64,000 nt of DNA, from contig JAQGDQ010000305.1 of the NCBI GenBank assembly GCA_030141605.1, forward strand, positions 124,001 to 188,000, written 5' to 3'. Origin of the DNA: Tubiluchus corallicola (lineage: Eukaryota; Animalia; Priapulida). The position numbers and the translations under genes are program-made. The notes below the pieces were generated by a model. It was not told the DNA's origin. It saw nothing but the letters and a program-made list of their open reading frames with translations, and did no database searches. Below, piece by piece: positions 3,931 to 10,200 of this stretch. Position 1 is the stretch's first letter, and every line of letters begins with the position of its first letter.

Positions 3931-4360
3931 CTTTTATGCATATATTACAAAAACATTGAAGATATTCTAAAAATATTTGACTAGATAAAAAATTATTTTT
4001 CACTGGCAGCCATCGATGTTTTGCCTCTCGAAAAATAATAATCTAAAAAGACTACTATGAGCTTAAATACATAAACATCATTTTTGTTTTTTAAAAGGTT
4101 TTCTTATTTTTATAGTGCAAAAAATTTGGTATGATGTTATAGCACAATGTTCAAATTACTTTATTTTGTAATTTTTGCAGTTGATGTTTTCGATCAGTAG
4201 GGAAAGATGGCTGCTTACTTGTGAGTGTGTGTCGTGTTTACCTTAAGTGCTTATGAATTGTGAGTTTTGAAGTTCCGCGTGCAAAGACTTGCTGCTTGTA
4301 CATTGAATTTGAATAAAATTGTAGGGGTTCTCTTGTCACGGAAAGATGGCTGCAAAATAC
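3931..4360. promoter_or_regulatory. Probable bidirectional promoter between LRRC57 and RAD51C/RPAP1, with YY1-like motifs
   Basis: Divergent genes. GGAAAGATGGCTGC occurs twice on + (4201-4214, 4340-4353) and a related GATGGCTGCC occurs on - near 4005-4014; both resemble the YY1 consensus AAGATGGCGGC. Confidence 0.5.
4207..4220 (+). CDS. RPAP1: Candidate leader micro-exon (ATG GCT GCT TAC TT|gtgagt), in frame with RPAP1
   Basis: Strong donor GTGAGT at 4221. Splicing to the AG at 7235-7236 gives MAAYLFRT-MSRRPKPGE in frame. Splicing to the AG at 5806-5807 gives the uORF MAAYL*. Confidence 0.5.
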
Positions 4361-4949
4361 AATATTTTGCTTTGTAACAGATTAAATATTTTGGGGTTAG
4401 TTACTAATCCATTTTTTGTAGTATAGTATTGTATATTTAGTAGCCTATACGCTATATGGTACAAAGTTAATTTGCTTGCGAAAAATGACAGACCTTACCA
4501 TAAGACGGTCTCTTCTCACTGATTTACGAAACTGAGACAAATTTGATGATTCAACGGCTTCACTATTAAAAGAACTCAAATTGGCTAGAGCGTCGTAGAA
4601 CTAGTTCGGAGTTGTGACTTTGTATTTCACCTAGTAGTCTGGAAAAGAACTTACCACCATGTGAAATATACTTACCACTGGTGATTTTAAAACAGTGAAT
4701 AAGATACAGAGTGTTATGGTATTGTTTGAGAGAAGATACGGAATCTGGTTTAAAAAAAAACTCAAGTTTAGGAAATTAGGAGGTTTAAGGAAATGTTTTG
4801 GGCTGTTATAATGATAAAATTCTTTACTCTTCTTACTAACACGACTTTGCAAGATGCTGCTCATATCATTAGTGAGCAGAATGTTAGGCGGGTTTCAATT
4901 CCTGTAAGAAGCGAGTATTAAGTGAAAGTGTTAAAACACAAACTCCCAT

Positions 4950-5510
4950 AAATAAAAAAATCACAATTAAAAAAAGAATAATAAAAACAATAGTCATGAT
5001 TGTAGTTTTTCTTCAAAAAGACCATAGGAGAAGAAACATGGAATTAAGTACTACAACTCTTGATCTATTTTTTGGCAGTTTTTTGTTTATAGCAATATTA
5101 ACGCCTAAAAAAGGATGTCATATTAAAAAGGATACAAGCATGTAGAAAAAACACAGACCTCTGATAAAAACACACATGTTAATAATACAGAAGTATAAAA
5201 TTACTATTCACAGTCACACACCAGAATGGGACACAGTAGAAATGCGGGTTTGTATGTACATAGTTGTGTATTTCTTCTTTGTGTTTTTTCAACCGTACTC
5301 TGTTTTTTAACGAGCTTATTTTTTGTTATTTTTTTTTGAGGTGTTAATAATATAAACAAAAAAACTCCCAAAAATTAGCTGAGTAATTCGTGTAATTCCT
5401 TGTGATTTTGCCTTTTTAGGTTCATCTTTAGAACTGCCATGGTAGTTTGAAATGCTGTACCCTTCATTTCCTTCTCCTTGTTTTTTAATTGTGGGATTAT
5501 TTTGTTCATT
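4950..5510. repeat. Degenerate foldback (inverted repeat) element
   Basis: tttttggcagttttttgtttatagcaatattaacgcctaaaaaa (~5069-5112) is the reverse complement of tttttttgaggtgttaataatataaacaaaaaaactcccaaaaa (~5331-5374); weaker match outward. Confidence 0.65.
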
Positions 5511-6685: not shown

Positions 6686-7246
6686 TACATATTGGAAATT
6701 TTTTTAAGTGAGTCATTATCTGTTTTGTTGTGATGCTTTGTAATGTATTGTCATGATTGTATTTATTTACAAATGTGGCATTTTCTGTGGTCTAGTGGTG
6801 TATAGTCTCTGTGTTTCATTCTGGGTACCTTTGAATACGATACTCACTTTTGGCAGTGTCATGTATAAACCTAGGTTGCTTATATATCCGAATTGTGGCT
6901 GAGACACCTTTGCTGGTTTAGTGGCTCATCTCAGAGGTATATTTTTGATAATGAATCATGTACCAGTCATATCACAAACATGCCTTTGAGAAGGCCTTAC
7001 CTTTGATTGCTTTCCAGCATGCAGTGTAGAGTGTCACCATGCATAAAAAATAGGCTTGCCATGCTGGAATTTTAGAAACATGGCTTTCAAGTAATTTGAA
7101 CCAAATGTTCCATATCAGTTTACCTACATGTGATCTCATATTTTTTAATGCCTGTTTTGTGATTTGGTTTACTGTAGCTAACGAAACCATTTTAATTTTT
7201 AATCTTGCCATGTTAATCATGAATTACAGACTATAGGTTCAGAACC

Positions 7247-10200
7247 ATGTCGAGACGCCCGAAGCCAGGCGAAACGGAAAACGATCTGCTTCGTTTTCAA
7301 CGCGAGTTTTTTACAGAGCATCCATCTCCTGCAGCCAGTTGCCAAAGAATACAGAGAGATGTTAATTCTTCCAGAGATTCAAACAAACGTGATGTTGTCA
7401 GCATAGATAACACAGGTATTACTAGAACACAGCATAGTACCGAGTTTTAGGTAGTTGGTGTGTCATAAGCACTACACACCGCATTACCTTTTTTGTGTAA
7501 CTTATTTGCGTAATTTTACTTTCCTGATATTTAACTTGTTTAGTTCTTTAGTTATGGCTTACTATAACTTTAGGTTATGTTGACCATTGCATATGTTATT
7601 TTATGTTCGAATGAAAGTTATTGTACAAGCCAGTATAAACACGAAACAATACAAACAACAAAAACAAGTTAACAACACGTAAATGGAATAGTCTTGAAGA
7701 AATCCAGTTGAGGGATTTTAGCCATGTTAGTCAGACTTTCAGGTTTTTCTTGATTCTTAAATTAATTTATTTGTTTATAGTTCATACTTTGAAAATTTTA
7801 GTTCGCAACTCCATTGACGAACCCGATAAGAAGAAGACAAAAATGAAGCACGATGTTAGAAAAATTGTACATTTTGATCCTGCTGACATTGATCGAGATG
7901 CTGAAGAGGAGCTGGATAGTAAGAAGAAATAAACACAATCATATATAGTAATTAAGAGAAGTGTATACTTCACATTTAAAGTGACTCTTGTGATGCATGT
8001 AAATCATTTCATGTATAGTTAAGCTTGCACTAAAAAGTTCCAATTGCCCAACATTACATAAGTAAAAGTATATGTATTAGGTGAGTACTTAAGTGGTTCT
8101 GTGTGTGCTTAGCAAAGTTAAGCAATGCTGAGCCTGGTCATTGTGAGGTTATAGATGGATGACCATCGGGTTCAAAACTCAATTTGTGCACTTCATGAAC
8201 TTCTGTATACCATACTGATTTTGATTGTTTATTGCATAAAAGGTGAATGTATTCTCACATACGACTGTGTATGACTGAGATACTTTTGCCAGTCAGTTTG
8301 CTCTTGGAGGCTTAGCCTGGATAATGATAATAATGAGATTTCAGCTCTGCTTCAGTAGCCTGCATTGTGCATTGGAAATGTGTAAAAAACAGTTAAAATA
8401 TTAAAGACTAATGACTGTCAAACATGCATTCGGATACACCACTTGCATTGTTTTGAAATTCCTGTCTAAATTTTTAAATGATTTCTAAACCTGACTCAGT
8501 AGTATAATTCTGTATTTTTTCCCTTGTTGTGCTACCTTTGGGATGTTTTGATGAGTGTGTAGGCCAGGTTCAATGCCCATTGTCATTAGTATTTAAGGGT
8601 ATAATGTTTTGTATATAAGTATTGTTTGCTATTTGCTTTTTAGAATATGACACTCATTTGACGGCTGTCCTGCCAAAGATATTGGTAAGTGTGTAATTTC
8701 AACAGTGACATACTGTTCACAAAATGCACAGATTTGCCCAAAACTTGATTTTAGCATGGTTGCCATAATTAAATTAAATGACTGTATTTAATTTTTTTAA
8801 TTAAATATCTGAAGTTAATCAACCTTTGCTTTGCTTTTTTTATAAAGAATGGAATTGCTTAGGTTTTTCTTTATTTTTATCATCGTAAGTAAATTAAAAT
8901 ATGGTTGGATACATACCATCTTCGTATATATATATACGTCGTATTAGTAGCCAGTCAAGTTATTTTGGAGTTTAGTTCCCAGTTGTAGGTCTGTCTTGGC
9001 AAACGTTACACATTTGTGTACGTGAAATTGTATTTTATGATTTGAGATTTTTATAAAGTTTAATGAAAAAGAATTTTATTTACACGCCTAAATTAATGAG
9101 TAATAATAATGCATCTGTACATGTTCCCGCATTGTCAGTATTTTTAATAAATATTTTTACCCTTTACTCTTAATACTTTTAGTTTTTTTAATAAACTACA
9201 ATACAATTGAGTACATGTATTTCTATAAACTAGTGATTTATATTGCATATGCATGCATAAAAATATATTGAGAAATTGTGTTGTTAAGTTGAAATTGTGA
9301 AGTTATTGTGAAATTTTTATCTTAGCAATACAGTTATCTAAACTGCTAATATTATGTACCAGTTCAGTTCGGCATCACTTGATTAAATGAAGATTTAAGA
9401 AACCAGTACAGGAATAAGATTAGTTTTGACTTACTTTTAATTTGTGAATCCATTTTTGTCAATGATAGGAAAGAGAGATGGTCAAAACTTCTATTGCGCT
9501 GCCCCGTCCCACCCAGCAAGCATTTCCGACACCCCTTCATAGAGGGAAGCATGCACCATCACAGCCTGGAAAAAAGAAGAGCATTTTCGCACAGCAGATG
9601 GAACATGCAAAGTTGTCAGATTTTGGTGTGTCAGAATTAACTGTTGTGTCTACTGTACCGGCTGCTTTTCCACATGCCGATGGTGAAGACAGTCCCACAG
9701 AAACTGGTAGAAACCACTCTGACACTGGCGAGATGATTAAAGTGGACACAAGCAAAATTGCAGAAGTAGTTGGTAAAATGTTTTTTCTTTTCCTTGATAA
9801 TACACTAGTACTCTGTTTTTTTATTTTTTAGTCCTCTGTTCTTCTGTTTTTTCTCCACAAAGTGGAATAATCAATTATACGAATGGGCAGCCATAGCTGT
9901 CTGAGTCTGAGCTTGGTCTTGATGGAAGCATTCCCCCCATGTCAGCTTCCACCACTGCGATGTTTTCTCGTTTCACTTTTTGCCTCTTGTGAAACTATCA
10001 TTCAAAGCATTGCGCATGAGTTTAATGAAAACTGCTCATACTTTATGCTATGAACTTACTGGCCAGTCTTGTAATTACTGTATTTCTTATTGGGCATAAA
10101 CTTTTTCTTTTTTTCAGTCTTATAGTCAGAATGTTTTGCAGACTTGTTCCATCAGTTGTTGTTTGCTTGAATTACTTGAAATGACAGCGCAGTAATCCTG

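What the first reader, a model, noticed from the sequence alone, without database searches (positions are those of the whole stretch)
4207..7260. One leader exon, two unrelated proteins: RAD51C nested in RPAP1 intron 1 behind a uORF switch
Seen in sequence: RAD51C and RPAP1 are on the same strand only ~560 bp apart. Each start codon is preceded by an AG acceptor (5807, 7236), and the clearest upstream donor is ATGGCTGCTTACTT|gtgagt at 4207-4226. Splicing to 7237 extends RPAP1 in frame (MAAYLFRT-MSRRP). Splicing to 5808 makes a 5-codon uORF whose TAG ends 7 nt before the RAD51C ATG. I found no canonical AATAAA between 6685 and 7236 (only TATAAA/CATAAA variants). Inference: a single promoter makes both mRNAs by alternative 3' splice-site or poly(A) choice, or makes a bicistronic or trans-spliced RNA, with RAD51C dependent on re-initiation or leaky scanning.
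Basis: partly seen in the sequence, partly recalled or inferred. Interest (0 to 1): 0.78.

Follow-up and report, generated by a model that had tools for sequence, protein, structure and literature searches.

The report
Intronless RAD51C tucked before RPAP1
In a likely priapulid worm, an intact, intron-free RAD51C DNA-repair gene sits about 560 bases in front of RPAP1 and likely borrows RPAP1's promoter and first exon, a layout already known from nematodes, flies and mice; no RNA shows the shared exon, a separate RPAP1 start is nearly as likely, and the proposed translation switch is unsupported.

Summary
The coordinates are right and both genes are real. RAD51C (5819-6685) is an open, intronless 288-codon frame lacking the N-terminal domain, with a very strong acceptor at 5807. 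RPAP1 is a 26-exon, 1397-residue model from 7247. An LRR gene faces away at 3930, so 3930-4350 is probably a divergent promoter.

Most likely (0.5) RAD51C is a retrogene in RPAP1's first intron sharing its leader. That is a known kind: unc-17/cha-1, 130 fly genes, mouse Taf9/Ak6. This scan noted the layout before in other genomes, and a nested retrogene in this one.

The specifics do not hold up. The 4221 donor is middling. In-frame joins to RPAP1 are common (6 of 11). The uORF vanishes with the acceptor 4 nt downstream or an ATG at 4184, and appears on RPAP1 with acceptor 7229. Missing AATAAA is ordinary (14 of 28 intron tiles).

A rival leader (motif, ATG, donor at 7077-7091) inside the gap, plus a CpG-rich RPAP1 start, makes an independent RPAP1 promoter about 0.35. 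No RNA covers the decisive junctions. Low interest.

The parts
3847..3930 (-). First coding exon of a leucine-rich-repeat gene (LRRC57-like; that name is recalled, not from a call), GC donor at 3846; faces away from RAD51C and RPAP1
   Evidence: Joins in frame with exon 2543-2678 in a script; exon 2 hits Pfam LRR families; Atlas nearest clusters are eukaryotic LRR proteins, scores 0.91 or lower
3931..4350 (.). Likely divergent promoter region
   Evidence: Head-to-head layout; CpG o/e 0.82 in 3700-4700 against 0.44 in 8000-28000; inference
4201..4214 (+). GGAAAGATGGCTGC copy 1, YY1/TISU-like, contains ATG 4207
   Evidence: Exact repeat; 10 of 12 positions match the TISU consensus printed in PMC3177215 (compared by eye)
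4340..4353 (+). GGAAAGATGGCTGC copy 2, contains ATG 4346
   Evidence: nearest donor 4374 is weak (2.9 bits) but would be in frame with RAD51C
4184..4220 (+). Candidate leader exon ending at the 4221 GTGAGT donor. ATG 4207 is in frame with RPAP1 and out of frame with RAD51C; ATG 4184 (weak context) is in frame with RAD51C
   Evidence: no RNA support
4218..4675 (-). Cluster of strong minus-strand donor sites (4675, 4654, 4498, 4241, 4218) and an acceptor at 4350; possible 5' exons of the LRR gene overlapping the candidate leader
   Evidence: 4 sites of 8 bits or more in 501 nt against 0.4-0.9 per kb background, but one other such cluster exists in the window; unresolved
5788..5811 (+). RAD51C acceptor: strong AG at 5807 and a tandem AG at 5811, which is also the uORF stop
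   Evidence: 12.3 and 4.0 bits; use of 5811 puts ATG 4207 in frame with RAD51C
5819..6685 (+). Intronless RAD51C coding sequence, 288 aa, ATPase core only; no N-terminal domain and no basic C-terminal tail
6708..6713 (+). GTGAGT donor 22 nt after the RAD51C stop; could make RAD51C a cassette exon or end an RPAP1 leader
   Evidence: 5.0 bits; untested
6864..7047 (+). Variant poly(A) hexamers TATAAA 6864, AATGAA 6950, CATAAA 7042
   Evidence: use unknown
7077..7096 (+). Rival RPAP1 leader: AANATGGC-type motif with ATG 7080 and donor 7091; a 146-nt intron to 7237 is in frame with RPAP1
   Evidence: donor 6.9 bits; frames; one of only 2 of 11 motif copies followed by a donor of 4.9 bits or more; one shallow DNA contig of run X1 has a different base at 7084
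7178..7242 (+). Branch-like CTAAC (7178) and three competing AGs at 7229, 7236 and 7242
   Evidence: 7229 turns either leader ATG into a short uORF, 7236 and 7242 keep frame
7237..7415 (+). RPAP1 exon with ATG 7247; the first 20 codons are CpG-rich
7247..27723 (+). RPAP1 coding region, 26 exons, 1397 aa in my hand-built model
   Evidence: Open frame after fitting boundaries; Pfam RPAP1_N and RPAP1_C

Best explanation
RAD51C here is an intact, intronless, N-terminally shortened gene on the same strand just upstream of RPAP1; it is likely an old retrogene that landed in RPAP1's first intron and is likely transcribed from the divergent promoter near 4200, with the leader predicted to splice either to the strong 5807 acceptor (the message would then end at a variant poly(A) signal in 6860-7050) or past it to the RPAP1 exon. 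Shown: gene identities, open frames, absence of introns in the RAD51C frame, splice-site sequences. Inferred: retroposition, promoter position, which donor is used, both junctions, the poly(A) site. For RAD51C translation I favour plain leaky scanning past ATG 4207, or an in-frame route (acceptor 5811, ATG 4184 or a different donor), giving low constitutive output, over regulated re-initiation.
For: RAD51C has no intron over 867 nt while its neighbour has 25, and the Alvinella orthologue has 5 (PMC10366140, passage). The 5807 acceptor is the best in 4230-7300 (12.3 bits), so RAD51C very probably has an upstream leader exon. No exon for the missing N-terminal domain exists in the window: a profile from 112 of 120 homologues gives best E 2.9 over 3521 six-frame segments, while 35-residue control fragments (from the training set) score about 1e-15. 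The only region that is both head-to-head with another gene and CpG-elevated is 3700-4700. The 551-nt gap 6686-7236 has 3 CpG to 20 GpC, like RPAP1 introns (164 to 556, P 0.44) and unlike 3931-4620 (15 to 25, P 0.047). It would also have to hold a 3' UTR, a terminator and a promoter. Precedents.
Against: A second motif-ATG-donor unit at 7077-7091 has a better donor (6.9 bits) than 4221 (4.9) and is in frame with RPAP1 over a 146-nt intron, within the 90-1605 nt range of RPAP1 introns. The first 20 RPAP1 codons hold 9 CpG against 2.9 +/- 1.3 expected, the top of 1378 windows (family-wise P 0.146, window noticed after seeing the data); the RAD51C start shows no such excess (z -1.6). The AT-rich core 3931-4200 is itself CpG-poor (3 to 8), so the CpG test on the gap is weak. 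Stronger donors than 4221 lie at 4129, 4904 and 4681, and the strongest donors in 4200-4700 are on the minus strand. A TISU-like ATG would resist leaky scanning (PMC3177215, passages), which sits badly with ATG 4207 heading the RAD51C message. The parental RAD51C locus could not be looked for.
Confidence: 0.5

Rival explanations
1. Three ordinary neighbours. The divergent promoter serves the LRR gene and RAD51C only. RPAP1 has its own promoter just behind the RAD51C poly(A) site, starting near 7050-7080 and splicing 7090 to 7237 or 7243, or using donor 6708 or 6937. RAD51C is then not nested.
For: Of 11 AANATGGC[GT] copies in the window, only 4204 and 7077 have a donor of 4.9 bits or more within 25 nt, one in front of each gene. 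About 0.05 copies are expected in 551 nt, and a donor follows by chance about 1 time in 10. There is a branch-like CTAAC at 7178, a CpG-rich RPAP1 start and 6 CpG to 8 GpC in the next intron.
Against: The gap is CpG-depleted (3 to 20). The single difference in a 358-nt DNA contig of run X1 falls inside the motif at 7084 (depth 2.9, may be an error). At least some motif copies are background: 43178 has no evident gene start beside it (by eye). The motif definition is recalled and was chosen after seeing the 4204 site.
Confidence: 0.35
2. A dicistronic or cassette-exon RNA: leader, RAD51C exon (5808-6707, donor 6708), then RPAP1 exons in one message, or read-through across a weak poly(A) site.
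For: GTGAGT donor 22 nt after the RAD51C stop (5.0 bits); no canonical hexamer in the gap; 159 dicistronic pairs are annotated in flies (PMC4528330, passages).
Against: Donors of this score occur at 4.4 per kb in introns. Half of intron tiles lack AATAAA. A stop codon upstream of 25 introns would be a nonsense-mediated-decay target (established knowledge).
Confidence: 0.08
3. A dedicated translational switch: ATG 4207 is the real RPAP1 start, and the same ATG becomes a 5-codon uORF that throttles RAD51C by regulated re-initiation or leaky scanning, possibly flipped by the 5807/5811 tandem acceptor.
Against: The same 14-mer recurs at 4340 with no good donor, which points to a DNA motif. Re-initiation after short uORFs needs a minimum spacing (PMC5972666, passages). 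The asymmetry reverses with acceptors 5811 or 7229. The LRR gene's own upstream region also holds ATGs out of frame with its start. No conservation data.
Confidence: 0.1
4. Operon-like precursor resolved by spliced-leader trans-splicing at both acceptors.
For: Both start codons lie about 10 nt behind an AG, and the gap is short.
Against: Conventional cis donors are available upstream of both acceptors, and the 7236 acceptor is weak. One literature search (priapulid, spliced leader, trans-splicing) listed 3 papers, none on priapulid trans-splicing by title or abstract start (listing only).
Confidence: 0.03

Closest known systems
C. elegans cholinergic locus unc-17/cha-1 (PMC3875643, passages)
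   Same: [quoted passage not shown]
   Different: There the sharing is shown and the products act in one pathway, and unc-17 has its own introns. Here sharing is only predicted, the nested gene is intronless and the functions are unrelated.
Drosophila shared-promoter genes, including Su(var)3-9/eIF-2gamma (PMC4528330, passages and section 8)
   Same: [quoted passage not shown]
   Different: Fly cases rest on cDNA and TSS data. In the coding-overlap cases the shared start is in the same frame; an ATG that is a start for one gene and a uORF for the other is not described in the section I read. File S2 not read.
Host-intron retrogenes: mouse Taf9 in Ak6, 13 human and 14 mouse chimeric retrocopies, the 'hitchhike' scenario, rodent Utp14b in Acsl3 (PMC4772013, PMC5408686, PMC5750009; passages)
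   Same: An intronless copy inside a host intron near the 5' end, expressed with the host's upstream exons; orphan retrogenes can replace the parent.
   Different: No parent locus could be checked here, and this copy has lost its N-terminal domain. For Utp14b the passage read gives only its position in Acsl3, not promoter sharing.
TISU element (PMC3177215, passages)
   Same: The ATG 4207 context matches 10 of 12 consensus positions; TISU is a YY1-dependent promoter element that contains an ATG close to the TSS.
   Different: Described in mammals; the TSS here is unknown, and two identical copies are present.
RAD51C of other animals (Alvinella PDB 8GJ8/8GJA, human 8FAZ)
   Same: ATPase core 45-50% identical to 11 aligned homologues, Walker motifs intact.
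   Different: Lacks the N-terminal domain found in 115 of 120 top homologues. That domain is flexible in CX3 but stacked with those of RAD51B and RAD51D in BCDX2 (passages). A Trichuris suis model (P0227, 277 aa) is similarly short.

Membership tests
RAD51C | RecA-type ATPase core closer to RAD51C than to other paralogues | tested here: met
   Top named hits are RAD51C; PDB RAD51C E 1.6e-82 against XRCC3 2.4e-29 and DMC1 1.5e-27
RAD51C | N-terminal helical domain | tested here: not met
   Absent from the ORF and from all 3521 six-frame segments of the window; present in 115 of 120 first-search hits and 86 of 148 representatives under 800 aa. An exon outside the window cannot be excluded but would have to cross the LRR gene
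Retrogene | Intronless coding sequence whose orthologues have introns | tested here: met
   One 288-codon ORF; Alvinella RAD51C has 5 introns; no close relative's gene structure seen
Retrogene | Intron-containing parent, or its loss, elsewhere in the genome | not testable with these tools
   No genome is held for this window
Retrogene | Poly(A) remnant and target-site duplication | tested here: inconclusive
   No convincing flanking direct repeat among the 20 largest of 23 families in 3900-7420; expected to be lost in an old copy
Shared-first-exon nested gene (unc-17/cha-1 type) | Same strand, with an acceptor in front of the nested gene | tested here: met
Shared-first-exon nested gene (unc-17/cha-1 type) | Host gene has no promoter between the nested gene and its next exon | tested here: inconclusive
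   CpG-poor gap against the motif-plus-donor at 7077-7091 and the CpG-rich RPAP1 start
Shared-first-exon nested gene (unc-17/cha-1 type) | Both mRNAs carry the same first exon | not testable with these tools
   No RNA contig on the leader or the junctions
TISU element | Consensus match | tested here: inconclusive
   10 of 12 positions at 4203-4214 and at 4342-4353 (consensus)
TISU element | Position just downstream of the TSS, very short 5' UTR | not testable with these tools
   No 5'-end data
Re-initiation-permissive uORF | Short uORF with enough distance to the main AUG | tested here: not met
   5 codons but only 7 nt; the review says a minimum distance is needed, with DENR-MCT-1 as a possible exception; no numeric threshold was read
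Spliced-leader operon | SL RNA genes and SL-bearing cDNAs | not testable with these tools
   No genome, no covering RNA; Rfam has no hit in 2600-9500 at E up to 1

The most novel reading that the evidence does not exclude
One YY1/TISU-like ATG serves as RPAP1's start codon and, through a 4-nt tandem acceptor whose first AG creates the stop and whose second AG is that stop, acts either as an inhibitory uORF or as an in-frame start for a domain-less RAD51C retrogene. Splice-site choice would then set the ratio of a Pol II assembly factor to a recombination factor and also gate RAD51C translation.
Probability: 0.08. Interest if true: 0.55.

Novelty: new member of a known kind. Interest (0 to 1): 0.25.

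Why it matters
If the shared leader is real, it adds one more case of a housekeeping promoter adopted by a retrogene, in a little-studied animal group. With the CEP290-in-PLPBP note from the same genome (unchecked AI note), it hints that host-intron retrogenes recur there. The side result that this RAD51C lacks the N-terminal domain, which stacks with those of RAD51B and RAD51D in the human BCDX2 structure, may interest recombination biologists if it is the animal's only copy. Only the tandem-acceptor/uORF gate would be surprising, and nothing here supports it over simpler readings.

Tried and rejected
RNA evidence: no RNA holder was listed for 3500-9800. Of 2 runs, X1 behaves as DNA of a close individual. 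X2 (guessed RNA, about 90% identical) laid 2 contigs at both 90% and 80% likeness. One lies on the RPAP1 exon at 7800-7901, with a loose end that matches 7384-7413 at 26 of 30 letters by eye; the other lies on the LRR gene. Neither touches the leader or RAD51C; that blank is no evidence either way.

Synteny: no genome is held. A direct metagenome scan found no relative among 255 pattern matches. An alignment scan kept the best 80 of 447 confirmed stretches; 0 of 80 loci have an RPAP1 hit, but none is a close relative (45% identity or less), so this says nothing.

RPAP1 homologues, sought to see whether an N-terminal extension is conserved: two word searches found none, nor did the Atlas or the PDB. 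All are weak negatives; the question stays open.

Hidden gene or RNA between the candidate leader and RPAP1: 0 of 10 small ORFs reach a Pfam cut-off; no Rfam hit; the gap folds no better than shuffles (z -0.08); flanking inverted repeats are short and were judged chance (not formally tested).

Tree: the careful search did not finish. The quick tree of 58 rows puts the window's RAD51C on a long branch in an unresolved group (support 87) with the Priapulus caudatus model and two long-branch rows. Suggestive of affinity only.

Literature: RAD51C + RPAP1 gave 1 paper, a breast-cancer signature (listing only). One cholinergic-locus search was empty. PMC4528329 was opened first and is the companion paper, not relevant. 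No supplements were read; FlyBase File S2 and Carelli Table S4 list individual cases that I did not see.
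Full report
Setting. The window is AT-rich animal DNA with introns of about 0.1-1.6 kb. No genome is held. Earlier unchecked notes call the animal priapulid-like. My own weak check agrees: in a quick tree the window's RAD51C falls in an unresolved group (support 87, unstarred) with a Priapulus caudatus model.

Observation. RAD51C is one open frame at 5819-6685 whose best relatives are RAD51C proteins. RPAP1 is confirmed by two Pfam domains. I fitted a 26-exon model by hand until it read open for 1397 residues. 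A leucine-rich-repeat gene starts at 3930 on the minus strand, so the stretch between it and about 4350 is the natural place for a divergent promoter. CpG o/e is 0.82 in 3700-4700, against 0.44 in 8000-28000 and 0.86 in 30000-64000, the pattern expected of gene-body methylation (established knowledge, inferred here).

RAD51C. It has no intron, whereas RPAP1 has 25 and Alvinella RAD51C has 5 (PMC10366140, passage). It lacks about 60 N-terminal residues and the basic C-terminal tail seen in most aligned homologues. A profile of the missing domain finds nothing in the window (best E 2.9 of 3521 segments), while 115 of 120 top homologues have it. The Walker motifs are intact, CpG use matches distal RPAP1 exons (21 observed, 22.9 expected) and the frame is open, so it is an old, retained gene. 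Retroposition is the simplest origin, but the parent could not be sought.

Splice signals. I trained matrices on the 25 RPAP1 introns. The 5807 acceptor is outstanding (12.3 bits), so RAD51C very probably has an upstream leader exon. The 4221 donor scores 4.9 bits, level with the second weakest true donor and with intronic decoys (4.4 per kb at 5 bits or more). Donors at 4129, 4904 and 4681 score higher. The matrix has only 2 GTGAG examples and may under-rate 4221. In front of RPAP1 there are three AGs: 7229 (5.1), 7236 (2.8) and 7242 (4.9); 7229 is the first after the branch-like CTAAC at 7178.

The uORF. It depends on a particular pairing. With the tandem acceptor 5811, ATG 4207 is in frame with RAD51C; with 7229 the same ATG becomes a short uORF in front of RPAP1. 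ATG 4184, in the same candidate exon, is in frame with RAD51C through 4220/5808. Of 11 ATG-donor pairs (donor 4 bits or more, open exon up to 60 nt) in 3950-7236, 6 are in frame with RPAP1. ATG 4207 lies in a 14-mer repeated exactly at 4340 that matches 10 of 12 positions of TISU, a YY1-dependent promoter element (PMC3177215, passages), so it may be there as a DNA motif. Re-initiation after short uORFs needs a minimum spacing, with DENR-MCT-1 as a possible exception (PMC5972666, passages); 7 nt is unfavourable. The missing AATAAA is unremarkable: 14 of 28 intron tiles of the same length lack it, and 11 of 28 lack ATTAAA as well.

Does RPAP1 have its own promoter? Against: the gap has 3 CpG to 20 GpC, like introns (P 0.44) and unlike 3931-4620 (P 0.047), and 551 nt would have to hold a UTR, a terminator and a promoter. 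Only 2 of 11 copies of that motif in the window have a donor beside them, and they lie one before each gene. The first 20 RPAP1 codons are the most CpG-rich of 1378 windows (9 against 2.9 expected; family-wise P 0.146; noticed post hoc). Both candidate elements show a variant in run X1: 4196 (depth 9.5, in an initiator-like TCAGT; that label is recalled) and 7084 (depth 2.9, inside the motif, possibly an error). A cluster of strong minus-strand donors at 4218-4675 complicates the upstream region further. Sequence alone does not decide. I put the shared leader at 0.5 and an own promoter at 0.35; they can coexist.

RNA and relatives. The available data do not reach the decisive places; see Tried and rejected.

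Comparison with what is known. unc-17 lies in the first intron of cha-1 and shares its 5' exon (PMC3875643, passages). [quoted passage not shown] Thirteen human and 14 mouse retrocopies are expressed with host upstream exons, for example Taf9 in Ak6 (PMC4772013, passages; PMC5408686, passages). One search for RAD51C with RPAP1 found no paper on this pair as a locus (1 listing). This scan's notes report the same layout in three other genomes and a nested retrogene in this one; these are unchecked and were used only as leads.

Verdict. A real, tight gene pair with an intronless, shortened RAD51C; likely a shared-leader nested retrogene, a new member of a known kind. The uORF switch is unsupported. 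Interest 0.25.

Noticed in passing
window 4218-4675 (-), acceptor 4350: Five minus-strand donor sites of 7.1-9.8 bits in 460 nt, two of them a 21-nt tandem pair, plus a good acceptor. The two GGAAAGATGGCTGC copies coincide with a minus-strand donor (4218) and acceptor (4350), so the LRR gene may have 5' exons overlapping the candidate leader.
   Followed up: partly
window 5819-6685: RAD51C lacks the N-terminal helical domain and the basic C-terminal tail; similar short forms include P0227 (Trichuris suis), P0207 and P0221.
   Followed up: partly
window 3846 (-): The first coding intron of the LRR gene appears to use a GC donor.
   Followed up: no
window 3931-4020 (-): Upstream ATGs lie directly before the LRR gene's start, one of them in a GATGGCTGC motif at 4014.
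   Followed up: no
window 5030-5400: Imperfect nested inverted repeats (about 72% complementary) and raised depth in run X1: probably a decayed foldback or MITE-like element in the putative intron. A similar repeat with high X1 depth lies at about 3090-3350.
   Followed up: no
window 1-28000 against 29000-64000: Sharp change in CpG o/e from about 0.44 over the LRR gene and RPAP1 to about 0.86 beyond, consistent with mosaic gene-body methylation.
   Followed up: partly
window 39146-39607 (-) and 57186-57482 (-): Two related cysteine-containing exons on the minus strand, 18 kb apart, resembling repeats of an extracellular (ZP-N-like; label recalled, untested) domain.
   Followed up: no
window 31740-31805: Short run of TTAGGG-like repeats inside the contig.
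   Followed up: no
P0124 (Priapulus caudatus RAD51C model): Homology begins abruptly after the Walker A region, so the public model is probably 5'-incomplete.
   Followed up: no
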